A stretch of DNA of 64,000 bases from an uncultured Oscillospiraceae bacterium (GTDB taxonomy: Bacteria > Bacillota > Clostridia > Oscillospirales > Acutalibacteraceae): contig CAUDCW010000004.1 in assembly GCA_958448165.1 (NCBI GenBank), forward strand, positions 63,130-127,129. The letters are read 5' to 3'. The notes beneath the pieces were generated by a model that was not told the origin of the DNA, made no database searches, and was given only the letters and a program-made list of their open reading frames with translations. A program made the translations under genes and the position numbers. Positions 42,734-64,000 of the stretch are shown here, one piece after another (position 1 is the stretch's first letter; the number at the start of each line of letters is the position of its first letter).

Positions 42734-42739
42734 TTTTAT

Positions 42740-48659: not shown

Positions 48660-48721
48660 TCCGATAAACAAACATATTTTGCGGCACCGAAGCAACAGCT
48701 GTATTCGGCGCCGTTTCTTTT

Positions 48722-48901
48722 TTAAGGAAACACTGATTAAATCGTTTGTGCATATTGCGTCGTCAGATTTTTCGTTAGGTTGGACAAATAAAACGCAGTA
48801 ATGCTGACGCATTGCGAGGATTTTTTGGTCAGGCTGACGGAAAATATGCAAGCAAGATGTGTAAACAGCTTTTAAGCGTGATTAATTCAGTGTTTCCTTA
48901 A
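48722..48901. repeat. TIR-bounded ~180-bp element, copy 2 of 3
   Basis: ~90% identical to 952-1130 in the same orientation; lies between the leuB stop and the fhs promoter, 98 bp upstream of the fhs start. Confidence 0.8.
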
Positions 48902-48998
48902 ATATCGTAAATTCACACTTGTTAATATCTGCGCCGTATGATATAATTTTTTAATGTAGTAATCCCATATTTTTTATTATATATAGGAGGAACGGAAA

Positions 48999-50666: not shown

Positions 50667-50681
50667 AACAGAGATGATAAT

Positions 50682-51125
50682 TTGATGATAAAATATTATT
50701 CCGATTCGCCCGAAGCGACCGAGCAGCTCGGACAGCGGATAGCCAAAACATTAAAGGGCAATGAAGTAATAGCTATGTTCGGCGGACTCGGTATGGGCAA
50801 AACAGCTATAACAAGAGGAATTGCCGCAGGGCTTGGAGCGCAGGACTGTGTTTCAAGCCCGACCTTTGCGCTCGTCAATGAGTATGAGGGCAGATGTAAA
50901 ATCTATCATTTTGATATGTACCGCATAAACGGCATTGACGATTTGTATGCAATCGGCTTTTTTGATTATCTTGACACAGGCGTGCTGATAATCGAGTGGA
51001 GCGAAAATATAGCTGATGCTCTGCCCGATGACAGTATAATAGTCAGGTTTGAACGCGGCGAAGACGAGAACAGCCGTGTGATTACGGTAGAGGGGGAGAG
51101 GTTTGATGAAAATTTTAGCGTTTGA
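50682..51125 (+). CDS. tsaE: tRNA threonylcarbamoyladenosine biosynthesis ATPase TsaE
   Basis: GGLGMGKT P-loop in a ~150-aa protein; precedes tsaB. Confidence 0.85.
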   Translation: MMIKYYSDSPEATEQLGQRIAKTLKGNEVIAMFGGLGMGKTAITRGIAAGLGAQDCVSSPTFALVNEYEGRCKIYHFDMYRINGIDDLYAIGFFDYLDTGVLIIEWSENIADALPDDSIIVRFERGEDENSRVITVEGERFDENFSV

Positions 51126-51816
51126 TTCATCTGCGGTTTCCGCCTCGGTAGCCTTGGTTGAGGACGGCAAGCTGCTTGCAGAATCATTTCTAAATGTCGG
51201 TCTTACCCACAGTGCAACGCTGATGCCGATGACACAGCAGCTATTGCAGGCGTCGAACTGCAAGCTTGAAGATGTTGATGCCCTCGCTGTGTCGGCAGGT
51301 CCCGGCTCTTTTACGGGGCTTCGCATTGCGGTAAGCTGTGTAAAGGGCATTGCGGCGGCGCTCAATAAAAAGTGCGTTGCAGTATCAACGCTTGAGGCTA
51401 TGGCTTGTAACCTGCCGCCGATTGGCGAATTTACAATCTGCGCCGTTATGGACGCCCGTTGCAAGCAGTTTTACAATGCGCTTTTCAAGGTGCAAAACGG
51501 CGAGATTACAAGACTGTGTGACGACAGGGCAATAATGGTTGACAAGCTTGGCGAGGAGCTTAAAAATATAAGCGGAGACATAGTTCTTGTCGGCGACGGA
51601 TCACCTCTTGCCTTCAGTATGCTTGCCGATAACAATAACGTCAAATTGCCGCCCGATAACCTGCGCTTTCAGAAAGCGTCGTCGGTTGCGGCGGCTGCAA
51701 TAAAGAAGTATAATAATAACGAAACAGTCAGCGCAGCGGCATTGATGCCGTCATATCTGCGCCTGTCTCAGGCGGAGCGAGAGCTGATTGCCAAAAACAA
51801 GGGGGAGAAAAAATGA
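51103..51816 (+). CDS. tsaB: tRNA threonylcarbamoyladenosine biosynthesis protein TsaB
   Basis: MKILAFDSSAVSASVALVEDGKLL YeaZ-type N-terminus. Confidence 0.85.
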   Translation: MMKILAFDSSAVSASVALVEDGKLLAESFLNVGLTHSATLMPMTQQLLQASNCKLEDVDALAVSAGPGSFTGLRIAVSCVKGIAAALNKKCVAVSTLEAMACNLPPIGEFTICAVMDARCKQFYNALFKVQNGEITRLCDDRAIMVDKLGEELKNISGDIVLVGDGSPLAFSMLADNNNVKLPPDNLRFQKASSVAAAAIKKYNNNETVSAAALMPSYLRLSQAERELIAKNKGEKK

Positions 51817-52253
51817 TAGCACTTGGATGCGATCACGGTGGATTTGCCATTAAGGAAGCAATAAAAAAGTATCTTGATGAAAGCGGAATTGAGTACAACG
51901 ATTTCGGTTGCTACAGCGAGGAATCTGTTGATTATCCGGTTTATGCAAAAAAGGTTGCCGACGCAGTAGCAAGCGGCGAATGTGAAAAGGGTGTTCTTTG
52001 CTGCGGTACGGGTATCGGAATTTCGATTGCCGCAAACAAGGTCAAGGGTATCAGAGCCGCCGTTGTCACAAACGAGTTCTGTGCAGAGATGACGCGCCGC
52101 CACAATGATGCTAACATAATTGCAATGGGAGGCAGAGTTATATCCGAGGAGCAGGCGGTTAAGTTCACAAGAATATTCCTCGAAACCCCGTTTGACGGCG
52201 ACCGCCATGTCAAGAGAGTTCAGATGATAACAGATATCGAAAACGAGAATTAA
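51813..52253 (+). CDS. rpiB: Ribose-5-phosphate isomerase B
   Basis: MIALGCDHGGFAIKE...GVLCCGTGIGISIAANK RpiB/LacAB signature. Confidence 0.9.
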   Translation: MIALGCDHGGFAIKEAIKKYLDESGIEYNDFGCYSEESVDYPVYAKKVADAVASGECEKGVLCCGTGIGISIAANKVKGIRAAVVTNEFCAEMTRRHNDANIIAMGGRVISEEQAVKFTRIFLETPFDGDRHVKRVQMITDIENEN

Positions 52254-52455
52254 AAATTTGAAATTGCGAAGGAAATTTGAAATTGCGCCGACTCATAGCC
52301 ATAGTGGGTCGGCGCTTGATTTCTCTTAATCAATTTATCTTTGTATTTTGAAATTTTGATTATCTTGATTTCTTGTTATGATTATCTTGATTTCTGGACT
52401 TGCTTTTTTCTCAAATTTGTTGTATAATAGCCGATGTTATATTCAATTGATATAT

Positions 52456-52540
52456 GCGGGCGTGGCGGAATTGGCAGACGCGCTAGATTTAGGTTCTAGT
52501 GTCAACCGATGTGCAGGTTCAAGTCCTGTCGCCCGCACCA
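52456..52540 (+). tRNA. tRNA-Leu(TAG), class II with long variable arm, CCA encoded
   Basis: GCGGGCG acceptor paired with CGCCCGC-ACCA; D-arm GGCGGAATTGGCAGACGC; anticodon loop TTTAGGT (anticodon TAG); long variable arm; T-arm GGTTCAAGTCC. Own promoter (TGTATAAT at ~52414-52422). Confidence 0.85.
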
Positions 52541-52544
52541 AATA

Positions 52545-52599
52545 AGAACGAAAGTTATGATACCATTGGTATTGCAACTTTCGTTCTTTTTCTTTTTTC
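52545..52599 (+). terminator. Rho-independent terminator after tRNA-Leu
   Basis: AAGAACGAAAGTT...AACTTTCGTTCTT hairpin followed by TTTTCTTTTTT. Confidence 0.75.
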
Positions 52600-53006
52600 A
52601 AAAATGCCTGTAACACAAGGCTTTTTGGCTGTGGGGCATAAAAGATAAGTTTCAGTGTGGGAAATTTTCTCCGCTCTATGATCCTTGCAAAACTGAAAAA
52701 AAGACGGAATTATGAACCCGAATACCAAAATGAAACTTTTCTCAAAATAGATTAGTTTCATTGTATAGAAAAGTTTCACTGTCAAAAAGAATACACAAAG
52801 ACAACAGAATAACCTTCCGATTCAAGAACGGAAGGGACATCGAGGTTGGGGTTGAATAAACCCCGCCTTTTTTGTTTGGGTGGAAAAATTCATATTTATG
52901 TGATATAATCTGTTCGATAAATAAGAATTTGTCTAACTGATAGCAACAGCGAGTTGCTTGTAAACTTGAACATCCTGCATTACAATTATAGTGAGGTGAT
53001 GATTCT

Positions 53007-53771
53007 ATGGAAACAAAGGATATTATAGTAGAGTTGAGAACTAAAAACGGGCTTTCACAAGAAGCTCTTGCAGAAAAAATATTCGTAACAAGACAGGCGG
53101 TTTCTCGTTGGGAAACCGGAGAAACGGTGCCAAATACTGAAACACTAAAATTGTTATCAAAACTGTTTGATGTATCTATCAATACGCTTCTCGGTTCTCC
53201 AAGACAGCTTATCTGCCAATGCTGCGGTATGCCTTTGGAAGATTCTAATATCAGCAAGGAAACCGATGGTTTCTTTAATGAAGAATATTGCAAATGGTGC
53301 TATGCAGACGGAGAATATATGTATCATAATATTGATGACCTGATTGATGTTTGTGTAAAGCATATGGCAAATGAGGAACATCCGGAGGAAGAAGTTCGTT
53401 CTTATTTACAGGAAACTCTACCGAAATTAGATTATTGGAAGAGATACAAAGAGCTTGGCGGTGATGGAGCTTTTGAAGAATTCAAAAAACTCTTGATTAC
53501 GGAAATCAATGAATTGAACATTGAAGGAATGCCAAAGCTTCAAAAGCTTAATGCCTTAGTTGGCGGATATGTCAATCTTGAATACAGACTTCCAAACGGA
53601 AAAAGTGTGAAGTTTTTAGATGACGGAGTAACCTATTTAGGGAATCAGTTGGAATGCGAATTCGGAGAAAACAGATGTTTTGGCATTGTCTGCAATATGG
53701 ATTTTATTCTTATTGCAACCTATGAAGAAAATGGCGAAAATCCAGAGTTGGTTATTTATAAAAAGAGATAG
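53007..53771 (+). CDS. XRE-family HTH regulator fused to a Cys-rich (zinc-ribbon-like) domain and C-terminal domain of unknown function
   Basis: LRTKNGLSQEALAEKIFVTRQAVSRWETGE HTH_3 motif; CQCCGMPLED...CKWCYADGEY. Confidence 0.7.
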   Translation: METKDIIVELRTKNGLSQEALAEKIFVTRQAVSRWETGETVPNTETLKLLSKLFDVSINTLLGSPRQLICQCCGMPLEDSNISKETDGFFNEEYCKWCYADGEYMYHNIDDLIDVCVKHMANEEHPEEEVRSYLQETLPKLDYWKRYKELGGDGAFEEFKKLLITEINELNIEGMPKLQKLNALVGGYVNLEYRLPNGKSVKFLDDGVTYLGNQLECEFGENRCFGIVCNMDFILIATYEENGENPELVIYKKR

Positions 53772-54053
53772 TCAAATTCCAATTTTTCGGTCGGTTGCAT
53801 ACACTTCTTGGGTTGCATTTCAATGCAACTTTGCAACCGCTTGCAACCCGTACCAAAATATGCGTTATAATTCAAATCGAGGGTAGTTTTTACTGCCCTC
53901 GTTTTTTTTGCGTTTGCCCGGAATGGGCAGTAACTTGGTGGTGGGAGTCCACTACAGGCTTGGCAGTAGGAACTGTTAGCTGAGGGCAAGTGCGTCCATC
54001 GTGAGGTGGAGTATGAAATAAGCCTAAAGCAAACTCTCGGTCTGACGAACAGA

Positions 54054-54375
54054 AATCACATATAAGGCATATGCAGAGCGGACGAGCTTGGCTCATTTGG
54101 GTGATATTGTATTGTTCCGTTATGTTGTTCGACAATACTTTTTACAATAGCTAATCCTAAGCCGGCACCGCCGACTTTTTTAGTCATTTGCTTGTTTTCA
54201 CGGTAGAAAGGTTAAAAAATATGCGCAGAGCGTCAGGGGAGATGCCAATTCCTGTATCGGATACGATAATCAAAAGTTGGTTGTTTGCCTTTTTAGTTTT
54301 GATATGTACTTTGCCATTTTCTGTATTATATTTAATTGCATTTTGAATAAGGTTTGATACAGCGTGTTTAAGCAT
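54054..54375 (-). pseudogene. Histidine kinase C-terminal remnant (HATPase domain only, frameshifted)
   Basis: 54375-54184 encodes N/G1 boxes (NLIQNAIKYN...IIVSDTGIGISPDALRIFF) and ends in TGA; an overlapping ATG in another frame continues as MTKKVGGAGLGLAIVKSIVEQHNGTI (G2 box). No HisKA or sensor domain upstream (stop immediately 5'). Confidence 0.6.
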
Positions 54376-54489
54376 TTCATCTTCTATTTATCTGTTTTCA
54401 AATTAAAACGCTTAAATATATTGCAATTTAATCATATGTATGTTATGCTTTTATTCAGAACGAACGATTTGAATGAATGGGGTGATTAG

Positions 54490-55095
54490 GTGGCGAATTA
54501 TACAGAAGAACAATGGAATGTCAAAAAAAATAAGCTTATGGAAACGTGCTTTAACGGTTTTGCCGATTTAGGACTTCACGGCACCGGTATTCGGGTGTTG
54601 GCAAAGCATTGCGGATATAACACATCTATGATCTATACATACTTTGAAAGCCTGGATGACCTTATCATACAATCTACGGAGTACTGTATGAGTAAGGTAG
54701 AAGATGATTTTATGGCGAAAGCTCCCACAGATGTTAAGGACTTATGGCGGTTTATAGACGAGATACCCTACTGGACTGCAAAAAAACACGGAAAGAAATA
54801 CCGCCTTATGTATCAGGTCTATACACACCCGAAATACAGAGAATACGGTCAGAAATTCTTTGCGGGTGTTGATAAGCGTTACACCGAATACGCAAAAAGC
54901 TTAGAGGGTAAGCTGGGAATTCCTTATCAAAAGCTGACGCCGCTGATATTCATTCTAATCAGAGCCTGCGTGCATTACGCATTATTTGAGGACGAATTTT
55001 ACCTGAAATCACAGATTACTGTGCTGAAAGAATCTATTGAACTCTTTGTTATGAAATATAACCCGAAAGCAAGGTCGGGTGCTAATACAGAATAA
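54490..55095 (+). CDS. TetR/AcrR-family transcriptional regulator
   Basis: GTGIRVLAKHCGYNTSMIYTYFES TetR_N HTH; ~200 aa all-helical. Confidence 0.75.
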   Translation: MANYTEEQWNVKKNKLMETCFNGFADLGLHGTGIRVLAKHCGYNTSMIYTYFESLDDLIIQSTEYCMSKVEDDFMAKAPTDVKDLWRFIDEIPYWTAKKHGKKYRLMYQVYTHPKYREYGQKFFAGVDKRYTEYAKSLEGKLGIPYQKLTPLIFILIRACVHYALFEDEFYLKSQITVLKESIELFVMKYNPKARSGANTE

Positions 55096-55270
55096 GTTAA
55101 ATTCAAAAATAAGAACATAACAAATCTGCCAACAGCCTGCTTTTGCGGATAAAAACGTAACTCATTAAGTGCCCCGTCTGTTATAATTCTCCGGTGCTGA
55201 ACGCCGGAAAGATCTTTTCCACCTTCGGTTATTTTATAACTAAAAAATATTTGACCTTGGAGGTATCATT

Positions 55271-55579
55271 ATGCAGATCACAACTAATATCAGTAATCAG
55301 AATCTTATAATTTCAATAAGCGGCAGACTTGATACTATTTCCTCACCGCAGTTAGAGGAGGAGATTAACCGCAATTCTTTTGATGAAATTGAAACGGTTA
55401 CTCTTAATATGAGAGCGCTTGAGTATATATCAAGTACAGGACTCAGGGTTATTTTAATGCTTTATAAGAAACTGACAAGTGTCGGAGTTAAGCTCAGGCT
55501 TGTTAATGTAAATGATATGGTTATGGAAATATTCACTATGACAGGAATGGATAGTTTTCTTGAGATAGATTATGCATAA
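55271..55579 (+). CDS. STAS-domain anti-sigma-factor antagonist (SpoIIAA/RsbV-like)
   Basis: 102 aa; LEYISSTGLRVILMLYKK, with the conserved phosphorylatable Ser/Thr in the ISSTGL context. Confidence 0.8.
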   Translation: MQITTNISNQNLIISISGRLDTISSPQLEEEINRNSFDEIETVTLNMRALEYISSTGLRVILMLYKKLTSVGVKLRLVNVNDMVMEIFTMTGMDSFLEIDYA

Positions 55580-57362
55580 TATTTTTAATGAGAGTGATGT
55601 TATGAGTGAAACAGCGTTAAAACGTAATTCTGTCACAATAAACAGGAAGTATTCGGAATATTTTTTGCCTACTGTTCTTACGGCTATGGCTACAAATATT
55701 GCAATGATTGTCGATTCAATAATAGCCGGCAATATTCTCGGCAAGAATGCTTTGGCTGCAATAAACCTATTATCTCCTGTTGCTCAGCTTTATTTTTCGC
55801 TGACAATTTTGTTCGGACTCGGAGCTTCAAGTGTTATAGCCGTTGCAAAAGGAAAGAATGACAGAACGCTTGTAAACCGCATTTTTACGACAACATTTAT
55901 TGCAGTTGTGTTATTATGTATCGTGCTGATGGCAATACAGCTTCCGCTTGCAGGCGGAATATGCTCTTTGTTTACTAAGGATAAGGTTTTGAATCCGCTT
56001 CTATATCAGTATTACATACCGTATATAATCGGAACACCTCTTAATCTGATGCTGCTGTGTTCAACTTATTTTATCAGAACTGATAACAGACCGAGATTTG
56101 CTTCAAATATAATAATTGTGGCAAACATAATAAATCTGATTATGGATTATGTGTATATGGGCGTTTTCGATATGGGTATTGCAGGCTCGTCAATAGCCAC
56201 TGTTACCGGCTACGCTGTAGGATTTATTATGATGATTACACATTTCACTTCAAAAAAGAGCACGCTGCATTTTGACTTTTCAATTCTGAAAGCCCCAAAG
56301 AAATTTTTTGAAATATTCTCTGATCTGATTACGGTCGGCTTATCCGGTGCGCTGGGAACGCTTCTTATAACGGTCAAAATGCTGTTCCTTAACTGGATTA
56401 TCATGAGTACAGGCGGAAGGGACGCAATGGCTTCGTATTCAATATGCTCATCAAGTCAGATTTTTATGTCTATGTTCATAACAGGTGCGTCGCAGACAAT
56501 GATACCGATTGTCGGTGTTTGTTTGGGCGAAAAGGATTTTGATGGAATACGGTATGCATTCAGACGGGCATTTACAATTCTTGCCGTAGTAAGCGTTGTA
56601 ACTATGCTGTTTATTTTGGCTGCGCCCGAACCTGTAATAAGACTGTTTGGAATAACTGCTGAAAACGATATTTCAAATGCAGTTCCCACACTCAGGATAA
56701 ACGCTCTGTCGTTTCCTGCGCTTGCTTTTTCTTTTCTGTTTCTGTATTACTATATGGCAACTCAGAGAAAGACAATATCAACAACCATTGCAGTTCTTAA
56801 CGGAATTGTAATACTCATTCCATCGGCACTTATTTTGTCAAAGCTTTTCGGAATAACAGGTGTGTGGATTTCACTTGTGGCGGCTCAGGTCGGCACGTTG
56901 ATTGTATTATCTTTTATAATTCTCGTTATTAAAAGAAAATCAAAAGGTAAGTATGATAGCTTTTATCTTATTGAATCCAATGATAATAATGAGATTGTTT
57001 CATTGTCTTTCAAAGGCTCAAAGGAAAACGCCTCCGGTGTTTCTTTATATTTAACATCGTTTCTTACATGTCACGGTATTGAAAAAAACATTGCTAACAG
57101 GATAGCTGTAGCTGTTGAAGGAATTTCGGCAGATATCGCAGAGCGTACCGGTGAGAAGAAAAAAGCGGATATTGATATTCGTATTATGATTGACGGCGGT
57201 GACACAATAATTTCTATTCGTGATAACGGAGAGGCGTATGATATTGTTTCAAATGACAGTGTAGATAAAACACTTTCGGAAATTGAGGTAGTAAAAGCTA
57301 TTTCAAAAAGAGTTGAATATTCAAATGTACTGGGCTTTAACAGATTGGTAATTAGAATTTAA
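55572..57362 (+). CDS. MATE-family efflux transporter (12 TM) fused to a C-terminal anti-sigma-factor-kinase-like HATPase (GHKL) domain
   Basis: N-terminal ~455 aa hydrophobic with a MATE-like duplication. C-terminal ~140 aa NIANRIAVAVEGISADIAERTG...DIDIRIMIDGGDTIISIRDNGEAYD...NVLGFNRLVIRI resembles SpoIIAB/RsbW-type HATPase_c_2. Start overlaps the STAS gene stop. Confidence 0.7.
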   Translation: MHNIFNESDVMSETALKRNSVTINRKYSEYFLPTVLTAMATNIAMIVDSIIAGNILGKNALAAINLLSPVAQLYFSLTILFGLGASSVIAVAKGKNDRTLVNRIFTTTFIAVVLLCIVLMAIQLPLAGGICSLFTKDKVLNPLLYQYYIPYIIGTPLNLMLLCSTYFIRTDNRPRFASNIIIVANIINLIMDYVYMGVFDMGIAGSSIATVTGYAVGFIMMITHFTSKKSTLHFDFSILKAPKKFFEIFSDLITVGLSGALGTLLITVKMLFLNWIIMSTGGRDAMASYSICSSSQIFMSMFITGASQTMIPIVGVCLGEKDFDGIRYAFRRAFTILAVVSVVTMLFILAAPEPVIRLFGITAENDISNAVPTLRINALSFPALAFSFLFLYYYMATQRKTISTTIAVLNGIVILIPSALILSKLFGITGVWISLVAAQVGTLIVLSFIILVIKRKSKGKYDSFYLIESNDNNEIVSLSFKGSKENASGVSLYLTSFLTCHGIEKNIANRIAVAVEGISADIAERTGEKKKADIDIRIMIDGGDTIISIRDNGEAYDIVSNDSVDKTLSEIEVVKAISKRVEYSNVLGFNRLVIRI

Positions 57363-57382
57363 AGCAGAAGAATACGTTTAAG

Positions 57383-57561
57383 CTAAGGAAACACTGAATA
57401 AATCACGCTGAAAGCTGTTTGCACATCTTGCTTGCATATTTTCCGTCAGCCTGACCAAAAAATCCTCGTAATGCGACAGCATTACTGCGGTTTATTTGTC
57501 CAACCTGACGAAAAAATTGACGGCGCAATATGCACAAACGATTTAATCAGTGTTTCCTTAA
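57383..57561. repeat. TIR-bounded ~180-bp element, copy 3 of 3 (inverted relative to copies 1 and 2)
   Basis: Reverse complement matches 952-1130 and 48722-48901 at ~90%; ends 25 bp upstream of the NRPS start codon. Confidence 0.8.
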
Positions 57562-57585
57562 AAATAATTCTTAGGGGTGAATGGA

Positions 57586-60500
57586 ATGAATATACCCAAA
57601 AAGGCTTCTCTTTCAAAGACAGAATACGGAATTTATTTTGATTATCTGAACAATCCGAGCAGTATTGCTTACAATATTCCGTTGTTTTTAAAGCTTGACA
57701 AGGATATCGACATTACAAGACTTAAGCAGGCGGTTGAAGCGGTTATTGAAAATCATCCGTACATTAAATCACGCTTAACTGCCGATATCGACGGAGCTGT
57801 TTACAAGCTTTCGTCCGATGAACCGGCAGTTGTGGAAGTTAAAGAGCTGCACGACGCCGATTTTGACAAAAAAAGCCTTGTTTATCCTTTCGAGTTACTA
57901 AGCGAAAGACTTTATCGGTGCTGTATTATTAGTCTTGATTCATATGTGATGCTTTTCTGCGATTTTCACCATATTATCTTTGACGGCTCGTCAGCCAAAA
58001 TCTTTTTGAATGATGTTTCAAGAGCCTACAATGGTTTGCCGCTTGAACCGGAGCATTTTACAGGAAACGACGTTTCGTATGAAGAAGAGGAAAGATTAAA
58101 GACAGACGAGTTTAATTCTGCTAAGGAATATTATCGTTCGCATTTCAGCGGCATTGAGCTTGATTCTGTTATGATGAATGACAAAAACGACGGAAAACCA
58201 CTTGCAAAAGCAATTGAATACGAGTTTACATCCTTTAATGCTGACGATATAAGAAAATTCTGCCGCAAAAACGGCATAAAAACAAGCACATTCTTCTGCG
58301 GCGTTTACGGCTTTTTGCTTGCAAAATTTTCGGGAGCTGAAGAAAGCCTTTTTGCGACTATTCATAACGGACGAAACGAAAAGCTCGCAAATTCCTGCGG
58401 AATGTTTGTTAAGACATTGCCTGTTTACTGTAATTTCAGTAAGAATGAAAGTATTGTGCAATTTCTGAAGAGTCTTGATTTACAGCTTCAAAACAACAGA
58501 AAAAATGACTTGTATTCATATGCAGATATATGTTCTGATTTACAGATAAATCCACCGACCATTTTTGCCTATCAGGGTGATATATTCAGAAACATTAACT
58601 TCTGCGGAAAGGAAATATTTGCTGACAGCATAGATGTTCCCGATGCAAAGGCAAATATTTCGGCAGAGCTTTCAAGAATTAACGGAAGATTTTCAATGAG
58701 ATTTGAATACAGAGCCGATTTGTATGAGGAAAAGTCGGCAGAAAGCTTCCTGAAATCATTTGAAAAAGCGGTAACTGAATTTATCGGGAAAGAAAAAATA
58801 AATGACATTGACATAACCGACAGCGAACAGCTTGCACTTCTTGACAGCTTTAACAATACTGAAAGAGATTACGAAAAGACCGATATTGTAACGCTGTTCA
58901 GACGTCAGGCAGAACAGAACCCTGACAACACAGCAGTTGTATATCTTGACAAAAGCTATACATACAAAGAGGTTGACGAGATTTCGGAAAAAATAGGTGC
59001 ATATATTTCCTCTCTCGGAATCGGAAGAGAAGACGTTGTTTCCGTACTTATTCCGAGGTGTGAATATATGGTGCTTGCGTCATTGGGTGTTTTGAAATCG
59101 GGTGCGGCATATCAGCCGCTTGACCCGTCATATCCGCAGGAGCGCCTTGAATTTATGATGCAGGATGCATCGGCAAAGCTTCTGATAGCCGACAAAGACT
59201 TGCTTGAGCGTGTGCCGAATTACAAGGGTAAGGTGCTTATTCTTGAGGATATTCCTGCACTTCCGAGCTGTGAAAAAATCAGCACAAATCCCAATTCCGA
59301 GGATTTGTTTATTATGCTCTACACCTCAGGCTCAACAGGCACACCAAAGGGCTGTATGCTTGAACATAGAAATATAGTTTCCTTTTGCAACTGGTACAGA
59401 AATTATTACAATCTTACTTCTCAGTCAAGGGTAGCGGCTTATGCAAGCTACGGCTTTGACGCAAATATGATGGATATGTACCCTGCGCTGACAACAGGGG
59501 CAACAATACATATCATTGACGAGTCAATCCGTCTTGACCTGCTGGCGATTGACAAATACTTTAATGAAAATAAAATAACCCACAGCTTTATGACAACGCA
59601 GGTCGGCAGACAGTTTGCTGTTGAAATTGACAACAGCACCATAACCGAATTGTCTGTTGGCGGCGAAAAGCTTGTGCCGCTTGCTCCTCCGAAAAATCAT
59701 AAGATGATAAATCTTTACGGTCCTACCGAAAGCACCGTTTGTATAACAGCATTTGAGCTTGACAGGCTTTATGACAGAGTGCCGATAGGAAAGGCACTTG
59801 ACAATACAAAGCTTTATGTTGTGGATAAGCAAGGCAGGAGATTGCCGCCTTGTGTTCCCGGTGAATTGTGGGTTGCAGGTCACGGAGTGTCAAGAGGTTA
59901 CTTAAACCGCCCCGAACAGAATGAAAAAGCCTTTATCAGAAATCCGTTTACCGATGAAAAAGGCTATGAAAGAGTTTACAGAACAGGCGATATAGTGAGA
60001 TATTTGCCAGACGGCAATATCGACTTTGTCGGCAGAAACGACGGTCAGGTTAAAATCAGAGGCTTCAGAATCGAGCTTCCCGAGGTTGAGCGCATTATCC
60101 GTGAATTTGAGGGAATAAAAGACGCAACTGTTGCGGCATTTGATGAAGCAGGCGGAGGAAAATTTATTGCGGCTTACGTTGTATCTGACAGCAAGGTAGA
60201 TATTCAGAAGCTCAATGAATTTATACTTGCTAACAAACCTCCGTATATGGTTCCTGCAGTAACAATGCAGATTGACAGAATTCCTCTTAATCAGAATCAG
60301 AAGGTCAACAAGCGTGCATTGCCCAAGCCTGAAAAGAAAGCGCACAACGGCGAACCGTCATCAAAGCCTATGACCCTGCTTGAAAAGAAAATTCACTCAA
60401 TCGTTGCTGAAATTCTCGGTAACGATAATTTCAGTGTTACTGAAAATCTTTTGTTTGCAGGACTCAATTCCTTGTCGGTAATTAAGCTTGCGGTTGAACT

Positions 60501-63500
60501 CCATAAGGAATTCGGCTTTGAGGCTAATGTGAAGCAGATGATGAAGGAATGCTCTGTTATTTCTATTGAAGACCGGCTTCAGGAATACCTTATTAGCGGA
60601 GCATTGGCAAAGAGTACAGCCGAGCAAAAGCAAAAAGGCTACAAGTCTTTATATCCGCTGTCAAAGACGCAGTTGGGCGTATATTTTGACTGTATGAAAA
60701 ATCCGTACACTACGCTATATAACATTCCGTCATTTCTTAAATTCACAAAGTCTATAAACGCAGAAAAGCTTGCTGACAGTGTTAAAAAGGTTATTCTTGC
60801 GCATCCGTACATATTCACTCATCTTACAACGCAAAACGATGATGTAGAGCAGGCTTTTCCTGATAACACACAGATTGATATTCCTGTAAAGAAAATGACT
60901 GAAAATGAGCTTGAACTCTTTAAAAAAGACTTTGTCAAGCCGTTTAACTTCTCTAAAGCTCCGCTTTTCAGAATCCTTGTTGTTGAAACAGAGAGAAATA
61001 TCTATCTGTTTGCTGATTTTCATCATATTATTTTTGACGGTGCGTCTTACAACATATTTTTGAATCAGCTCAAAGCAGCATATGAGGGTGCTGAAATCAG
61101 GCCGGAGAATTATACATATTTTGACTATATTGAAGACGAAATCAAAGCTGAAAGCAGCGAAGAATACCTCAAAGCAGAAAAATTCTTTGATGATATGATG
61201 AAGAATTTTGAGTCGGCGTCCGAAATAACTCCTGATTCAGGCTCACAGGGAGATAACGGCAGGCTTGCAGAAGTAAATGTTCCCTTTGATTTAGCGCAGA
61301 TAGAAGCTTTCTGTAATAAAAACGGTGTTACACCTGCACAGCTTTTCCTTGCAGCCGCTTTCTATTCAGTGTCACGCTTTACAAATTCAAGAAACGTATT
61401 TCTCAGCACAATCAGCAACGGCAGAAGCGATATGCGTCTGACGGATTGTTTTGGTATGTTTGTTAAAACATTACCTCTCGGAATTGAGATTGAAGATATT
61501 TCGGCACTTGAATTTGTTAAAAAGAGCAAGTCTGTTTTTACGGGCGCAATAGAAAATGAAATTTATCCTTATTCAAAGATTTGTTCAAAATTCGGATTTG
61601 CACCGAATATAATGTACGAATATCAGATTGGTGTAACGGACGATTTGAAAATTGACGGCGAAGCTGTTGAAAGAAATTTCTTTGATATGAAAATCACAAA
61701 GTTTAAAACTGCAATTTATATTGAAAATTATAAAAATCAGCCCTGCATTGTTGTCCGTTACAATGAAGCGCTTTACAGTAAAGAGCTTATGCAAACGCTT
61801 GTAAAATCAATTTTCAATGCGGCTATGCACGTTATTTCTGCGCCGGATTGTAAGATAAGAAAAATTTCTCTGCTTGATGACAGTCAGCTTGATGAGCTGA
61901 ACAGCTTTTCTTTTACACGTATTGCTCCTGTTGAAACAAAGCTTTTGCATAAAATGTTTGAGAACCAGGTTGAAAAAACTCCCGACAACAATGCAATTAC
62001 TGCCTGTGACGGAACTCTTACATACAGAGAGCTTAACCGCCGTGCAAATGTTACTGCAAACGAGCTTATTGCAAGAGGCTTGAAAAAGGGTGGAAGGGTT
62101 GTGGTGCTGCTTAGCAGAACAACAAAAATTTTCTCAACCATTTTCGGTATCCTCAAAGCAGGCGGAGCATTTATTCCTACCTGCCCCGACTATCCGCAGG
62201 AAAGAATCAACAGTATTATCGAGGACAGTGAGGCTGATTTCGTAGTAACCGAGGGCGAGCTTGTCAGGATTTATGATAAAACGATAGATGTAGATTTACT
62301 TCTCGGCGGTGAAAACAGCGAAACACCCGATGTTGATGTAAGTCCCGAGGATCTGGCTTATCTAATTTACACATCAGGCTCAACAGGAAAGCCTAAGGGC
62401 GTTATGCTAAAGCATATTGGAATTGCAAACTATTTAAGCTATAATGACGCAAACCCTCAGGTAAAGTATGTTGTTGATAATTGCAAGGCTTACGGCTCTG
62501 TAACGACAGTATCATTTGATATGTCACTTAAGGAAACAGTACTTTCATTATGCAGCGGTCTGACGCTTGTCTTTGCAAGCGATGAGCAGACGGTTAACCC
62601 GATTGCTCTTGCAAAATTTCTTAAAGAAAATAACGCTGATGCGTTCAACGCAACTCCTTCAAGGCTTTTGCAGTATATGGAGCTTGATGAATTTGCAGAA
62701 GCGATGGCTGACTGTAAGGTTATTCTTTCGGGCGGTGAGAAATATCCCTATAAGCTCCTGAAGCTTCTCCGTGAAAAAACCAATGCAAAAATTCTTAATA
62801 CTTACGGTCCTACCGAAATAACGGTTTCGTCAAACTGTAAAGACCTGACAAACGCTGATGAAATTTCAGTCGGAAAGCCGCTTTTGAACTATGTTGAACA
62901 TATAGTTGACGTTGACAACAACCTTCTTCCTGTAGGAGTTGTCGGCGAGCTTCTGATTTCAGGGTGCGCAGTTGCACTTGGCTACAATAAACTTCCCGAG
63001 CAGACGAAAAAGGCGTTTGTTGAGTTTAACGGCGAAAGAACCTACCGTTCGGGCGACTATGCCAAGTGGACGAAGAACGGTGATGTTGTAATACTCGGCA
63101 GAACCGACAATCAGGTTAAGCTCAGAGGTCTGAGAATTGAGCTGGGCGAAATCGAAAAGTGCCTGACAGACATCAACGGCATTAAGAGTGCAGTTGCTTT
63201 GATAAGAAAGGTAAATAACGCTGACGCTTTATGTGCCTACTACACATCGAATATTCAGCTTGATTCGGAATTTATCAAAAATGAGCTTAAAAAATCTTTA
63301 ACTGATTATATGGTGCCTGCGGCATATGTTCAGCTTTCTGAAATGCCGCTGACCCCTAACGGCAAAATCAACACGAAGCTTTTGCCTGAGCCTCAGTCGT
63401 CCGAAAAGAAAACAGGAGTTAAACCGACAACTGCTCTTGAAAAAACTATGTGCGATATATTTGCCAAGGTTCTGGAGCTTGATAAGGTTTATGCCGATGA

Positions 63501-64000
63501 TAATTTCTTTGATATAGGCGGAAGCTCGCTGACCGTTACAAGGGTGATTATTCTTGCCAATAAAAGCGGTATAGAGATTGCGTACGGCGACGTATTTGAA
63601 AACCCGACTCCTGCCGCACTTGCAAGGCTGTGCGGAAAAGATGTGCCGAAGAACGACTTTGAAGATCTGGGTAACTATGATTACAGTAATATAGAAAATG
63701 TGTTGCTTAAAAATAATCTTGAGAGCTTCAAAAACGGAGATATGCAGGAGATAGGCGATGTACTCCTTACGGGTGCCGCAGGCTTCCTTGGAATTCATAT
63801 TCTTTATGAGCTGCTCCACAGATACAGCGGCAAGGTTTACTGCCTGCTGCGTGACAAGAATAACAATCCCGCAGAGGACAGACTTAATATGATTTTCTTC
63901 TATTATTTTGAAGAAAGTCTGAAAGAAAGCTATTCCGATAGATTGACTGTCTTGAGCGGAGATGTCACAGACAGAGAATCATTTGACAAGTTCCTTGAGT
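57586..64000 (+). CDS. Non-ribosomal peptide synthetase, two modules: C-A-T-C-A-T-R (terminal thioester reductase); 3' end beyond window
   Basis: AGGGGTGA RBS then MNIPKKASLSKTEYGIYFDY. The open frame continues to the window end. Motifs: HHIIFDGSS (C1), LYTSGSTGTPKG/YRTGD/GRNDGQVKIRGFRIEL (A1), FAGLNSLSVI (T1), HHIIFDGAS (C2), LIYTSGSTGKPKG/YRSGD/GRTDNQVKLRGLRIEL (A2), FFDIGGSSLTV (T2), VLLTGAAGFLGIHIL (R). Confidence 0.85.
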   Translation, partial: MNIPKKASLSKTEYGIYFDYLNNPSSIAYNIPLFLKLDKDIDITRLKQAVEAVIENHPYIKSRLTADIDGAVYKLSSDEPAVVEVKELHDADFDKKSLVYPFELLSERLYRCCIISLDSYVMLFCDFHHIIFDGSSAKIFLNDVSRAYNGLPLEPEHFTGNDVSYEEEERLKTDEFNSAKEYYRSHFSGIELDSVMMNDKNDGKPLAKAIEYEFTSFNADDIRKFCRKNGIKTSTFFCGVYGFLLAKFSGAEESLFATIHNGRNEKLANSCGMFVKTLPVYCNFSKNESIVQFLKSLDLQLQNNRKNDLYSYADICSDLQINPPTIFAYQGDIFRNINFCGKEIFADSIDVPDAKANISAELSRINGRFSMRFEYRADLYEEKSAESFLKSFEKAVTEFIGKEKINDIDITDSEQLALLDSFNNTERDYEKTDIVTLFRRQAEQNPDNTAVVYLDKSYTYKEVDEISEKIGAYISSLGIGREDVVSVLIPRCEYMVLASLGVLKSGAAYQPLDPSYPQERLEFMMQDASAKLLIADKDLLERVPNYKGKVLILEDIPALPSCEKISTNPNSEDLFIMLYTSGSTGTPKGCMLEHRNIVSFCNWYRNYYNLTSQSRVAAYASYGFDANMMDMYPALTTGATIHIIDESIRLDLLAIDKYFNENKITHSFMTTQVGRQFAVEIDNSTITELSVGGEKLVPLAPPKNHKMINLYGPTESTVCITAFELDRLYDRVPIGKALDNTKLYVVDKQGRRLPPCVPGELWVAGHGVSRGYLNRPEQNEKAFIRNPFTDEKGYERVYRTGDIVRYLPDGNIDFVGRNDGQVKIRGFRIELPEVERIIREFEGIKDATVAAFDEAGGGKFIAAYVVSDSKVDIQKLNEFILANKPPYMVPAVTMQIDRIPLNQNQKVNKRALPKPEKKAHNGEPSSKPMTLLEKKIHSIVAEILGNDNFSVTENLLFAGLNSLSVIKLAVELHKEFGFEANVKQMMKECSVISIEDRLQEYLISGALAKSTAEQKQKGYKSLYPLSKTQLGVYFDCMKNPYTTLYNIPSFLKFTKSINAEKLADSVKKVILAHPYIFTHLTTQNDDVEQAFPDNTQIDIPVKKMTENELELFKKDFVKPFNFSKAPLFRILVVETERNIYLFADFHHIIFDGASYNIFLNQLKAAYEGAEIRPENYTYFDYIEDEIKAESSEEYLKAEKFFDDMMKNFESASEITPDSGSQGDNGRLAEVNVPFDLAQIEAFCNKNGVTPAQLFLAAAFYSVSRFTNSRNVFLSTISNGRSDMRLTDCFGMFVKTLPLGIEIEDISALEFVKKSKSVFTGAIENEIYPYSKICSKFGFAPNIMYEYQIGVTDDLKIDGEAVERNFFDMKITKFKTAIYIENYKNQPCIVVRYNEALYSKELMQTLVKSIFNAAMHVISAPDCKIRKISLLDDSQLDELNSFSFTRIAPVETKLLHKMFENQVEKTPDNNAITACDGTLTYRELNRRANVTANELIARGLKKGGRVVVLLSRTTKIFSTIFGILKAGGAFIPTCPDYPQERINSIIEDSEADFVVTEGELVRIYDKTIDVDLLLGGENSETPDVDVSPEDLAYLIYTSGSTGKPKGVMLKHIGIANYLSYNDANPQVKYVVDNCKAYGSVTTVSFDMSLKETVLSLCSGLTLVFASDEQTVNPIALAKFLKENNADAFNATPSRLLQYMELDEFAEAMADCKVILSGGEKYPYKLLKLLREKTNAKILNTYGPTEITVSSNCKDLTNADEISVGKPLLNYVEHIVDVDNNLLPVGVVGELLISGCAVALGYNKLPEQTKKAFVEFNGERTYRSGDYAKWTKNGDVVILGRTDNQVKLRGLRIELGEIEKCLTDINGIKSAVALIRKVNNADALCAYYTSNIQLDSEFIKNELKKSLTDYMVPAAYVQLSEMPLTPNGKINTKLLPEPQSSEKKTGVKPTTALEKTMCDIFAKVLELDKVYADDNFFDIGGSSLTVTRVIILANKSGIEIAYGDVFENPTPAALARLCGKDVPKNDFEDLGNYDYSNIENVLLKNNLESFKNGDMQEIGDVLLTGAAGFLGIHILYELLHRYSGKVYCLLRDKNNNPAEDRLNMIFFYYFEESLKESYSDRLTVLSGDVTDRESFDKFLE

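What the first reader, a model, noticed from the sequence alone, without database searches (positions are those of the whole stretch)
52541..64000. tRNA-Leu(TAG)-adjacent, AT-richer accessory region carrying regulators, a decayed kinase gene and the NRPS
Everything downstream of the tRNA-Leu gene looks lower in GC by eye than the housekeeping block upstream. No GC computation was possible here. This region holds the XRE-Zn regulator, the histidine-kinase remnant, TetR, STAS, MATE-HATPase and the NRPS. It also contains a frameshifted, N-terminally deleted histidine-kinase fragment and several orphan hairpin/terminator structures. A tRNA 3' flank with a compositional shift and gene decay is the classic signature of a horizontally acquired island. 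No integrase/recombinase or direct repeat of the tRNA 3' end was found inside the window. Mobilisation machinery is therefore either lost or lies beyond 64000.
Basis: partly seen in the sequence, partly recalled or inferred. Interest (0 to 1): 0.6.

Follow-up and report, generated by a model that had tools for sequence, protein, structure and literature searches.

The report
tRNA-Leu insertion hotspot with NRPS module
The DNA after this tRNA-Leu gene is foreign-looking accessory DNA, but it is a patchwork built by several separate insertions at the tRNA's 3' end rather than one island. The newest piece is a 1.3-kb enzyme-less gene cassette of a family that sits exactly at the end of many different tRNA genes.

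Summary
tRNA-Leu(TAG) ends at 52540, and GC falls from 0.454 to 0.394. That is lower than any same-length core segment, and GC3 drops from 0.50 to 0.37. The listed genes and the frameshifted kinase remnant are real.

The tRNA 3' end is a real integration hotspot. Contigs of the same species show at least five different arrangements, all breaking at the CCA end. Two of them carry large serine recombinase elements.

The stretch is a mosaic, not one island:
- 52541-53875 is a recently inserted, recombinase-less cassette with an XRE/Zn-ribbon regulator. It is absent from most conspecific contigs.
- Next come the tRNA's own terminator, a group II intron 5' fragment and the kinase remnant.
- Then comes a TetR-STAS-MATE-NRPS(-CBAH) module. 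It is present in every conspecific contig that spans it and absent at this locus from all 80 related species sampled. A lower-GC organism carries it at a different chromosomal site.

No integrase and no tRNA repeat lie within 10 kb beyond the NRPS.

The cassette family has conserved ends and variable cargo. It abuts about 12 different tRNA 3' ends. I found no description of it, so it is a candidate new variant of decayed integrative elements (CIME-like).

The parts
52456..52540 (+). tRNA-Leu(TAG). Its 3' CCA end is the breakpoint shared by all structural variants.
   Evidence: ARAGORN; Rfam. Homology of L006, L009 and L010 to the window stops at 52540-52543.
52541..53875 (+). 1,335-bp recombinase-less cassette (GC 0.36) inserted exactly after the tRNA CCA. 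It is absent in most conspecific contigs.
   Evidence: L001-L003, L005, L007 and L008 jump from window 52543/52547 to 53873. Present in L091. The same unit is 96-99% identical after tRNA-Pro(CGG) in L094, after tRNA-Leu(GAG) in L093, and in L102 and L107.
52544..52591 (+). Conserved left-end hairpin followed by a T-run. It acts as the tRNA's terminator and is the hallmark of the cassette family.
   Evidence: Inverted repeat I5. Fold -21.9 kcal/mol, z = -7.7. Found in all 17 metagenome loci hit with a 25-nt pattern from it.
52794..52859 (+). Last 21 codons plus stop of a large serine recombinase gene (HKDNRITFRFKNGRDIEVGVE*). It is a deletion scar.
   Evidence: Translation. Cassettes in L129 and L120 keep 187 and about 70 residues of the same C-terminus. 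Homologues carry PF13408/PF07508.
53007..53771 (+). Cassette cargo: a 254-aa XRE-type HTH + Zn_ribbon_2 regulator. A promoter-like site lies at 52881-52909 and a terminator at 52847-52865 upstream.
   Evidence: Pfam; consensus scan. The exact protein is listed in 883 blocks of the assembly collection, against 101 for RpiB.
53842..53875 (+). Conserved right end of the cassette (TGCAACCCGTAYC...TGCGTTATAATTCA).
   Evidence: Alignment A2; present in 16 of 24 oriented copies.
53878..53901 (+). Intrinsic terminator. In cassette-free strains it directly follows the tRNA.
   Evidence: Consensus scan; junction sequences.
53995..54219 (+). Group II intron 5' fragment with no domain V/VI and no reverse transcriptase. 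Only about 53995-54090 aligns convincingly. It probably begins just after the terminator T-run at about 53905 (inferred).
   Evidence: Rfam RF02001, 52.2 bits against a gathering score of 32. No other intron family hit in 48000-58500. Conserved in all conspecific contigs.
54105..54375 (-). Histidine kinase remnant: HATPase_c only, frameshifted, with the N-terminus and HisKA missing and the C-terminus cut near the intron fragment.
   Evidence: Pfam (E = 5.8e-13); three-frame translation. Called as 63-64-aa and 43-aa stubs in conspecific contigs.
54490..55095 (+). TetR-family regulator, the first gene of the metabolite module.
   Evidence: Pfam. A 226-bp, 80%-identical copy of its promoter and 5' end lies just after the NRPS in L103 and L140.
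55271..55579 (+). STAS-domain protein (anti-sigma-antagonist type).
   Evidence: Pfam. Linked to the MATE and NRPS genes also in L111.
55572..57362 (+). MATE efflux protein with a C-terminal tail of about 130 aa that weakly resembles HATPase_c_2.
   Evidence: Pfam (tail E = 0.0033, below the cut-off).
57384..57564 (.). 181-bp MITE-like repeat with 21-23-bp terminal inverted repeats, just upstream of the NRPS start.
   Evidence: Repeats I1, I2 and I6. Other copies at 949-1130 and 48718-48900. Polymorphic between strains.
57586..64000 (+). NRPS with domains C-A-T-C-A-T-R, 2,422 aa in full. It runs off the window; by length its stop should fall about 850 bp past the window end.
   Evidence: Translation; Pfam. 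Full length in L103 and L140. Graded homologues of 93% down to 67% identity.

Best explanation
The 3' CCA end of tRNA-Leu(TAG) at 52540 is a reused attachment site. The DNA downstream of it is an island that grew by accretion, made of pieces of different ages.

1. Oldest layer. This is a secondary-metabolite module: TetR, STAS, MATE exporter, a two-module NRPS ending in a reductase domain, and probably the CBAH-family hydrolase just beyond the window. It lies between the tRNA and mntP. It is lower in GC than the host and no longer has any mobility gene. It is bordered by junk: a group II intron 5' fragment sitting after the tRNA's terminator, a histidine kinase stub, a partial repeat of the TetR 5' end, and MITE copies. 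I infer that it was acquired horizontally, or translocated, before the sampled strains diverged, and then became fixed in place.

2. Youngest layer. This is the 1,335-bp cassette 52541-53875. It has a terminator hairpin at its left end, the last 21 codons of a serine recombinase gene, its own promoter-like site, one regulator gene and a conserved right end. It has no recombinase. I infer that it is a deletion derivative of a serine-recombinase element that kept both ends, and that a recombinase supplied by another element inserts it exactly after the CCA. The crossover would lie in or next to the shared CA. Shared tRNA features (T-arm and CCA) could provide the targeting.

3. In other strains, further elements have landed at the same CCA and pushed the older DNA distally.

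Shown: the boundaries, the presence/absence polymorphism, the multi-tRNA distribution, the compositional difference, and the absence of mobility genes. Inferred: the order of events, mobilisation in trans, the identity of the recombinase, and the donor lineage.
For: Hotspot.
- Conspecific contigs are 98.7-99.5% identical upstream and then show different arrangements, all breaking at 52540-52547.
- L006 and L009 carry a 536-aa serine recombinase with Resolvase, Recombinase, Zn_ribbon_recom and DUF4368 domains.
- L010 carries the ABC-2 end of an element that has a relaxase and a 535-aa serine recombinase. That element abuts tRNA-Leu(TAG) in at least three different host contexts.
- L109 has a 52-nt repeat of the tRNA 3' part. 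L107 has another element to the left of the cassette, and the NRPS module is still present downstream in both.

Cassette.
- The empty site is CACCA|AATCGAGGG in L001 and CACCA|AAAAGAGGG in L002. The filled site is CACCA[AATAAG...ATAATTCA]AATCGAGGG.
- The same 1.33-kb unit is 96-99% identical in hosts whose flanks have GC 0.54-0.57.
- There are 17 further loci with the same left end. Together the copies sit next to about 12 different tRNA 3' ends; ARAGORN types seven tRNA genes with six anticodons (Leu-TAG, Leu-GAG, Leu-CAA, Pro-CGG, Pro-GGG in two variants, Pro-TGG). Cargo varies and length is 735-2,020 bp.
- The serine recombinase tail is inside the cassette.
- Joining the right and left ends gives TGCGTTATAATT-CA-AATAAGAACGAAAG, an imperfect dyad (9 of 13) around CA (the symmetry count is by my own inspection).

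NRPS module.
- It is a compositional outlier, and GC3 returns to 0.46-0.54 from CBAH onward.
- It is absent within 10 kb of rpiB in all 80 GTDB relatives, including species 85-87% identical in the core block.
- STAS-MATE-NRPS (NRPS 85% aa identical) sits between lysA-side and upp-side genes, with no tRNA-Leu, in a 531-kb contig of GC 0.33-0.41.
- rpiB - tRNA-Leu(CAA) - mntP are adjacent in more distant relatives.

Model. The published tycheposon model describes the same pattern: the tRNA acts as a seed and degenerate elements accumulate next to it (10.1101/2020.12.28.424599). [quoted passage not shown]
Against: - No autonomous 'master' element with the cassette's ends was found. The closest relatives of the recombinase tail (70% identity or more) are all truncated, and full-length relatives reach only 49% identity or less. 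Mobilisation in trans therefore has no identified enzyme.
- The two ends share only CA, or up to CAAAT at this locus. This does not distinguish serine, tyrosine or HUH-type mechanisms.
- The NRPS module has no att repeat. It was never seen absent in a conspecific contig that spans the site, so its horizontal origin rests on composition and on comparison with other species only.
- mntP is inverted relative to the distant relatives, so the 'simple insertion' picture is incomplete.
- CBAH has host-like GC3 (0.51) although it is linked to the NRPS in L112.
- Some short recombinase fragments in the databases may be gene calls cut off by contig ends.
Confidence: 0.7

Rival explanations
1. This is a single classical tRNA-integrated genomic island. 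One integrase-mediated event brought in everything from 52541 onward, and the integrase and the displaced tRNA 3' repeat lie beyond 64000.
For: The tRNA at one end, low GC and gene decay fit the textbook picture. Integrase or recombinase genes do occur next to this tRNA in other strains and species.
Against: L140, a conspecific contig with the same arrangement except that it lacks the 1.33-kb cassette, shows 10 kb beyond the NRPS with no integrase or recombinase. Scans allowing 2 to 12 mismatches found no repeat of the tRNA 3' 16-45 nt there. The first 1,335 bp is independently present or absent, so at least two events are needed.
Confidence: 0.05
2. The region is native. Its lower GC reflects gene function or expression (membrane proteins, a giant NRPS) and it was inherited vertically. 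Relatives simply lost it.
For: The module is present in all spanning conspecific contigs. NRPS homologues form a graded identity series (93% down to 67%) with hits annotated Acutalibacteraceae. Two core genes at 42374-43132 also have GC3 of about 0.4.
Against: The tetranucleotide distance is twice the largest value for any core segment. None of the 80 relatives has the module at this locus. The closest organism whose flanking genes could be read on both sides (L111, NRPS 85% aa identical) has it at a different chromosomal site in a genome whose GC matches the module. The junctions carry mobile-element scars.
Confidence: 0.12
3. The 1.3-kb XRE/Zn-ribbon segment is not a mobile unit. It is the in-situ remnant of a larger serine-recombinase element that decayed independently at each tRNA.
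For: It contains a recombinase tail. Larger cassettes keep more of that gene. No enzyme for mobilisation in trans is known.
Against: The same deletion derivative (1,333-1,335 bp, the same internal junction, 96-99% identity) occurs after tRNA-Leu(TAG), after tRNA-Pro(CGG) and at two non-tRNA sites, in hosts of GC 0.46 and 0.57. Independent decay would not recreate identical deletion endpoints. The presence/absence polymorphism within one species is precise to the base.
Confidence: 0.1

Closest known systems
tRNA-seeded genomic islands grown by accretion (tycheposon model, Prochlorococcus; 10.1101/2020.12.28.424599)
   Same: A full-length tRNA lies at the proximal end. Different elements integrate repeatedly at the same tRNA. 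Degenerate elements and cargo accumulate distally, and tandem elements are separated by partial tRNA copies (seen in L109).
   Different: The host here is a gut Clostridia bacterium (Acutalibacteraceae). The recombinases seen at the site are mainly large serine recombinases rather than the tycheposon tyrosine recombinases. Most junctions have no partial-tRNA repeat, because the breakpoint is at or after the CCA.
CIME (cis-mobilizable elements): decayed ICE/IME that kept attL/attR (PMC5704250; Pavlovic et al. 2004 as cited there)
   Same: The cassette has lost its recombination gene (only a 21-codon tail remains) but keeps conserved ends. It sits at a tRNA site where intact elements also integrate.
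   Different: CIMEs are described at one specific site per family and are moved in cis with an adjacent ICE. This family is 0.7-2 kb, usually carries one or two genes, and is found after about 12 different tRNA genes in hosts of different GC. No partner element has been identified.
Classical tDNA islands as catalogued by Islander (PMC4383910)
   Same: Located at a tRNA 3' end, with foreign composition and accessory cargo.
   Different: There is no integrase and no displaced tRNA fragment marking the distal end.
Gut Clostridia C-A-T-C-A-T-R NRPS clusters that make dipeptide aldehydes / pyrazinones (Guo et al., Cell 2017; from my own knowledge, not checked in the library)
   Same: Two-module NRPS with a terminal reductase, about 2,400 aa, in a gut Firmicute, with hundreds of homologues in gut metagenomes.
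   Different: The product and substrate specificity were not examined here. The linkage to STAS, to a MATE protein with a kinase-like tail and to a CBAH-family hydrolase is a local feature.
Bacterial class C group II introns, which insert after intrinsic terminators (from my own knowledge)
   Same: The fragment lies directly after a terminator hairpin and T-run and matches an Rfam group II D1-D4 model.
   Different: Only about 200 nt of the 5' part remain. The intron class was not determined here.

Membership tests
Classical integrase-mediated tRNA genomic island | Abuts the 3' part of a tRNA or tmRNA gene | tested here: met
   The accessory DNA starts at 52541, one base after tRNA-Leu(TAG).
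Classical integrase-mediated tRNA genomic island | Encodes an integrase or recombinase | tested here: not met
   None in 52541-64000 (Pfam) or in the next 10 kb (L140). Only a 21-codon recombinase tail remains.
Classical integrase-mediated tRNA genomic island | A direct repeat of the tRNA 3' fragment at the distal end | tested here: not met
   No match to the tRNA's last 16, 24 or 45 nt (2, 5 and 12 mismatches allowed) in the window or in L140.
Classical integrase-mediated tRNA genomic island | Composition differs from the core genome | tested here: met
   GC 0.394 against 0.439-0.463. Tetranucleotide distance 0.0193 against a core maximum of 0.0093. GC3 p = 2e-4.
Classical integrase-mediated tRNA genomic island | Variable presence among close relatives | tested here: inconclusive
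   The cassette 52541-53875 is polymorphic within the species. The NRPS module is present in every spanning conspecific contig, absent at this locus in 80 other species, and of unknown status in strains L006, L009 and L010.
CIME-like non-autonomous integrative cassette | Lacks its own recombination and transfer genes | tested here: met
   The only complete ORF with a Pfam match is the XRE/Zn-ribbon regulator. The recombinase gene is reduced to 21 codons.
CIME-like non-autonomous integrative cassette | Retains both element ends (att-like sites) shared with relatives | tested here: met
   About 105-390 nt at the left and 55-105 nt at the right are conserved across cassettes with unrelated cargo.
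CIME-like non-autonomous integrative cassette | Derived from, and mobilised by, an identifiable autonomous element | tested here: not met
   No full-length element with these ends was found. Relatives of the recombinase tail at 70% identity or more are all truncated. Full-length relatives reach 49% or less. No hits in plasmids and none in IMG/VR; the annotated phage records gave only four weak partial hits (13-42% of the cassette at 68-74% identity, unannotated human faecal contigs).
CIME-like non-autonomous integrative cassette | Evidence of actual movement (empty and filled sites, several sites) | tested here: met
   Empty site in L001 and L002, filled site in the window and L091. The same unit sits at four or more different sites.
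Group II intron | Domains I-IV RNA structure | tested here: met
   RF02001, 52.2 bits against a gathering score of 32. Only the first half aligns with high posterior probability.
Group II intron | Catalytic domains V/VI and an intron-encoded reverse transcriptase | tested here: not met
   No RF00029-type hit at E <= 1 in 48000-58500. No RT ORF between 53772 and 54490. It is therefore a fragment.
Reductase-terminated two-module NRPS (C-A-T-C-A-T-R) | Domain order: two Condensation, two AMP-binding, two PP-binding and a terminal NAD_binding_4/Epimerase | tested here: met
   Pfam (window part); precomputed domains of the 2,422-aa protein.
Reductase-terminated two-module NRPS (C-A-T-C-A-T-R) | Product is a dipeptide aldehyde or pyrazinone | not testable with these tools
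   Needs expression and chemistry.

The most novel reading that the evidence does not exclude
The 52541-53875 cassette may represent an undescribed family of miniature integrative gene cassettes. They are recombinase-less, 0.7-2 kb, and carry one or two genes. They are inserted exactly after the CCA of many different tRNA genes (Leu, Pro and others) across gut Clostridia of very different GC. A trans-acting recombinase that reads generic tRNA features (T-arm plus CCA) rather than one specific tRNA would move them. In effect this would be a 'pan-tRNA' attachment system that spreads single regulator and accessory genes between species.
Probability: 0.3. Interest if true: 0.7.

Novelty: new variant of a known kind. 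Interest (0 to 1): 0.45.

Why it matters
For genome annotation: a tRNA flank with low GC and gene decay should not be read as one island. Here it is an accretion series with a precise, reusable attachment point.

The region places a gut-type reductase-terminated NRPS module in a pig-gut Acutalibacteraceae species. The module appears to have moved between chromosomal contexts.

The more interesting part is the small cassette family. If an enzyme moves it in trans to the CCA end of many tRNA genes, it would be a simple and widespread route for single-gene exchange between gut Firmicutes. The recombinase involved would also have an unusually generic but base-precise target, which is of interest for genome engineering. 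The exact cassette protein is listed in 883 blocks of the assembly collection, so the phenomenon is abundant even though I found no description of it.

Tried and rejected
1. I looked for a repeat of the tRNA 3' end and for an integrase, both in the window and 10 kb beyond the NRPS. There is none.

2. I tried to reach the right boundary through the TetR-like sequence after the NRPS. It is only a 226-bp degenerate copy with no usable protein. I reached the boundary instead through a cluster member of the NRPS.

3. I searched for an autonomous parent of the cassette:
- A word-index search with the 187-aa recombinase tail gave only truncated proteins.
- Their contexts were a prophage end with three tandem serine recombinases (L131) and a spot of mixed recombinase remnants (L134-L139). 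Neither has the cassette ends or a tRNA.
- An exhaustive HMMER search found full-length relatives only at 49% identity or less. The best of them (L141) is not next to a tRNA in the gene table.

4. The cassette DNA has no match in plasmids, only weak partial matches in unannotated phage contigs, and no hits to either end motif in IMG/VR.

5. I considered an IS200/IS605-like (HUH, single-strand) mechanism, because the cassette inserts 3' of a short motif, has a subterminal hairpin and makes no target duplication. I rejected it as the leading model because a 3-4-nt target would not explain the restriction to tRNA ends, and because the cassette contains a serine recombinase tail.

6. I considered priming of reverse transcription by the tRNA 3' end. 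Nothing supports it.

7. I considered L010 as the ancestral 'empty' site. I rejected this because its flank is the end of a promiscuous relaxase + serine-recombinase element found on 543 contigs.

8. I looked for an intact orthologue of the kinase remnant in all fetched loci and found none.

9. Four literature searches found no description of such cassettes. They supplied the comparators read.

Full report
**1. Checking the observation**

ARAGORN finds one tRNA in the window, tRNA-Leu(TAG) at 52456-52540 on the + strand. Rfam agrees.

GC falls after it. In 2-kb windows it is 0.40-0.49 upstream and 0.37-0.43 downstream. The 11.46-kb stretch 52541-64000 has GC 0.394. All 82 same-length segments of the upstream 52 kb have 0.439-0.463. 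Its tetranucleotide distance to the core is 0.0193, against a maximum of 0.0093 for core segments. Its dinucleotide delta* is 0.036, against a maximum of 0.032. GC3 of the five downstream genes is 0.33-0.44, against a mean of 0.50 (sd 0.04) for 51 upstream genes (Mann-Whitney p = 2e-4).

Pfam confirms the listed genes:
- HTH_3 + Zn_ribbon_2 regulator, 53007-53771.
- HATPase_c stub, 54184-54375 on the - strand. It continues in another reading frame (FYRENK...GGAGLGLAIVKSIVEQHNGTI) to about 54105 and has no HisKA or N-terminal part.
- TetR, 54490-55095.
- STAS, 55271-55579.
- MatE, 55572-57362. Its C-terminal tail gives only a sub-threshold HATPase_c_2 hit (E = 0.0033).
- NRPS with domains C-A-T-C-A-T-R from 57586, running off the window.

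Hairpin-terminators lie at 52544-52591, 52847-52865 and 53878-53901.

- a group II intron D1-D4 match at 53995-54219 (52 bits);
- a 21-codon tail of a serine recombinase gene at 52794-52859;
- a 181-bp MITE-like repeat at 57384-57564, with further copies at 48718-48900 and 949-1130;
- the modular nature of the first 1.3 kb.

**2. The same species elsewhere**

The exact RpiB protein (51813-52253) is encoded on many metagenome contigs, mostly from pig gut. These contigs are 98.7-99.5% identical to the window upstream of the tRNA. Downstream they differ, and every breakpoint is at the tRNA 3' end.

- State A (the window and L091): tRNA, then a 1,335-bp segment, then a terminator, and onward to the NRPS.
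- State B (L001-L003, L005, L007, L008, L103-L106, L110, L140): the same but without the 1,335 bp. The sequence jumps from 52543/52547 to 53873.
- State C (L006, L009): a hairpin followed by a 536-aa large serine recombinase on the - strand, with Resolvase, Recombinase, Zn_ribbon_recom and DUF4368 domains.
- State D (L010): a different terminator followed by ABC-2 permease genes.
- L107 and L109: the NRPS-side genes are preceded by yet other DNA. L107 has a methylase-bearing element to the left of the cassette. L109 has a 52-nt repeat of the tRNA 3' part, preceded by genes that include a reverse transcriptase and followed by a variant cassette.

State D is not an empty site. The exact ABC-2 protein occurs on 543 contigs. 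It is the terminal cargo of an element with this gene order: DUF6076, AAA_25, MobC/relaxase, a 535-aa serine recombinase, a LytTR two-component pair, and an ABC transporter. The ABC end of that element abuts tRNA-Leu(TAG) in at least three different host contexts, with the same flank sequence as in L010. The tRNA's 3' end is therefore a working attachment site in this population. It is used by at least two different serine-recombinase elements and by an element that duplicates 52 nt of the tRNA.

**3. Related species**

A scan of one genome per GTDB species with RpiB gave 80 loci. The closest are L011 (an Acutalibacteraceae MAG), L012 (UBA7067) and L013 (Ruminococcus sp. zg-924). They are 80-88% identical to the window at the DNA level across 43.1-52.25 kb, about 84-88% in the part nearest rpiB. 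Collinearity stops at rpiB. Each still has tRNA-Leu(TAG) nearby, but each has different genes around it. L014 has a tyrosine integrase (Phage_integrase, E = 7e-27) directly after the tRNA. L013 has a methylase-rich block of higher GC.

None of the 80 loci contains TetR, STAS, MATE or NRPS homologues within 10 kb of rpiB. In more distant relatives (L067, L037, L052 and others), rpiB, tRNA-Leu(CAA) and mntP are adjacent.

**4. The far side**

Through a cluster member of the NRPS I obtained L140. It is a conspecific state-B contig reaching 10 kb past the NRPS. After the NRPS stop, in order, come:
- a 226-bp, 80%-identical degenerate copy of the TetR promoter and 5' end;
- another MITE copy;
- a CBAH-family hydrolase (GC3 0.51);
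- mntP (inverted relative to the distant relatives), a purine nucleoside phosphorylase, adenosine deaminase, a sigma factor and RmuC, with GC3 of 0.46-0.54.

There is no integrase, and the tRNA 3' end is not repeated anywhere. The low-GC block therefore ends about 0.9 kb after the NRPS. The whole insert between the tRNA and mntP is about 13.4 kb in state B, and about 14.7 kb with the cassette.

A contig with a 90%-identical NRPS (L112) also has CBAH, 55 bp after the NRPS. CBAH probably belongs to the module.

A 531-kb contig from an organism of GC 0.33-0.41 (L111) carries STAS-MATE-NRPS (NRPS 85% aa and 84% nt identical; STAS/MATE region 73% nt identical). There the module lies between Lon/EngB/LysA-side genes and upp, with no tRNA-Leu. 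The module has therefore occupied different chromosomal sites, and its composition matches a lower-GC lineage.

NRPS homologues form a graded series of 93% down to 67% identity, all 2,422-2,428 aa. The architecture is that of the gut Clostridia reductase-terminated dipeptide NRPSs (from my own knowledge: Guo et al. 2017).

**5. The 1,335-bp cassette (52541-53875)**

Its exact 254-aa protein is listed in 883 blocks of the assembly collection, against 101 for RpiB. The DNA is 96-99% identical in four other settings:
- L094, directly after tRNA-Pro(CGG);
- L093 and L095-L101, after tRNA-Leu(GAG), with an extra 224-aa ORF inserted;
- L102, in a neighbourhood of mobile-element genes and preceded by what looks like a degenerate tRNA-Leu 3' fragment (by inspection of the alignment);
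- L107.

The hosts in L093 and L094 have flanking GC of 0.54-0.57, against 0.36 for the cassette.

In every case the shared sequence starts right after ...CCA, with AATAAGAACGAAAG... It ends at ...TGCGTTATAATTCA.

A scan of metagenome contigs with 25 nt of the left hairpin gave 17 more loci. In at least 13 of them the left end abuts a tRNA 3' end. Altogether the copies sit next to about 12 different acceptor/T-arm sequences. ARAGORN types seven tRNA genes with six anticodons: Leu-TAG, Leu-GAG, Leu-CAA, Pro-CGG, Pro-GGG (two variants) and Pro-TGG.

The cassettes are 735-2,020 bp long. They share about 105-390 nt at the left and 55-105 nt at the right, and they carry unrelated cargo:
- the XRE/Zn-ribbon regulator;
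- another XRE protein;
- a Glu-rich protein of 172-208 aa;
- a 171-aa protein that looks GrpB-like by eye (not checked against Pfam);
- ORFs of 144 and 186 aa.

L109 shows a variant cassette with different cargo in the same tRNA-Leu(TAG) site: CACCA[TATAAAAACG...ATAATTCA]AAAAGAGGG. The empty site in L002 is CACCA|AAAAGAGGG. The insertion is therefore precise, and only CA is shared.

Inside the cassettes lies the 3' end of a large serine recombinase gene. L129 keeps 187 residues, L120 about 70, and the window 21 codons. Close relatives of that tail (70% identity or more) are all 5'-truncated. Full-length relatives of about 510-560 aa exist only at 49% identity or less. No copy was found in plasmids or IMG/VR.

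**6. Interpretation**

Shown:
- a base-precise, reused breakpoint at the tRNA CCA;
- a within-species presence/absence polymorphism of the cassette;
- near-identical copies of the cassette at different tRNAs and in different hosts;
- a compositionally foreign NRPS module that has no mobility genes, is specific to this species at this locus, and sits elsewhere in another organism.

Inferred:
- The module arrived by horizontal transfer or translocation before the sampled strains diverged and then lost its vehicle. The intron fragment, the kinase stub and the TetR repeat are scars of that history.
- The cassette is a deletion derivative of a serine-recombinase element that kept both ends and is moved in trans.
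- Joining its right and left ends gives an imperfect dyad around CA. This would suit a serine recombinase with a 2-bp crossover, but it does not exclude other enzymes.

The overall picture matches two published ideas. One is the tycheposon 'tRNA as seed, elements as vectors' accretion model. The other is the definition of CIMEs. The difference is that this cassette family is not tied to a single tRNA.

**7. Verdict**

This is accessory, foreign-looking DNA at a true tRNA integration hotspot, but it is a mosaic of at least two events, and no machinery is hidden just beyond the window.

As a tRNA-flank island it is ordinary. The cassette family is the unusual part. It deserves follow-up, and its mechanism is unresolved.

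Noticed in passing
window 949-1130, 48718-48900, 57384-57564: A 181-bp MITE-like element with 21-23-bp terminal inverted repeats; the three copies are 90-95% identical. It is polymorphic between strains. L001, L002, L006, L104 and L106 have an extra copy between window positions 45925 and 45931. L109 has only a solo terminal repeat at the NRPS site. A further copy follows the NRPS in L140. Sister species L012 has one at the orthologous leuB site.
   Followed up: partly
L142-L151 (about 10995-11082, - strand) and L010:3722-6161: A mobilizable element with relaxase, a 535-aa serine recombinase, a LytTR two-component pair and a four-gene ABC transporter sits with its ABC end against tRNA-Leu(TAG) in at least three host contexts. 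L145, L148 and L151 keep only the transporter part (recombinase and relaxase lost). The exact permease is on 543 contigs annotated as Eubacterium, Ruminococcus and Oscillospiraceae.
   Followed up: partly
L103:19956-20176 = L140:17641-17861 (by extrapolation about 0.4-0.6 kb after the NRPS stop, roughly 1.2-1.5 kb past the window end): A degenerate, 80%-identical 226-bp copy of the TetR promoter and 5' coding region (window 54414-54639) lies right after the NRPS. The TetR-to-NRPS block is therefore bracketed by direct repeats. This could be a trace of a past duplication or recombination event.
   Followed up: no
proteins P0121-P0240; loci L131-L139: The serine recombinase family whose tail is in the cassette is known almost only as 5'-truncated ORFs of 103-322 aa, some of them internal to long contigs. 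In L131 one follows a prophage end with three tandem full-length serine recombinase genes. In L134 it abuts a tyrosine integrase remnant, and it is followed by variable cargo (DUF3800 or a 235-aa ORF). It is not clear whether these fragments are junk or functional DNA-binding proteins.
   Followed up: partly
L109:1900-1951 and L109:2-1710: A 52-nt partial copy of tRNA-Leu(TAG), running from the anticodon arm to the CCA, lies between an upstream block and a variant cassette. The upstream block includes an RVT_1 reverse transcriptase with no group II intron RNA hit. This is the attR-type signature of another element integrated in the tRNA.
   Followed up: no
window 55271-57362; L111:5118-9983: STAS is translationally coupled to a MATE exporter whose tail weakly resembles an RsbW/SpoIIAB-type kinase. 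In L111 the same STAS-MATE-NRPS genes sit next to a membrane SpoIIE-phosphatase/HATPase_c_2 protein. This suggests a partner-switching control of export or of the cluster.
   Followed up: no
window 9951-10052 (-): A TPP riboswitch (Rfam RF00059, 60.3 bits) lies upstream of a - strand gene in the housekeeping block.
   Followed up: no
window 52354-52395: A tandem 20-nt direct repeat (TTTTGATTATCTTGATTTCT twice, 22-nt spacing) lies about 60 nt upstream of the tRNA-Leu gene, after the rpiB terminator. It may be a duplicated promoter region.
   Followed up: no
window 52640-52790; L109:2050-2240: The left part of the cassettes carries 3-6 direct repeats of a motif close to AGTTTCAYTGT. The right part carries several GGTTGCAT / TGCAAC repeats. 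They look like protein-binding arrays (arm-type sites or operators), but nothing was tested.
   Followed up: no
L067, L037, L052, L054, L045, L072: In more distant Ruminococcus-like MAGs the order is rpiB, tRNA-Leu(CAA), mntP, with about 100 bp between the tRNA and mntP. In the window's genus the tRNA at this position has anticodon TAG, and mntP is 13-15 kb away and inverted.
   Followed up: partly
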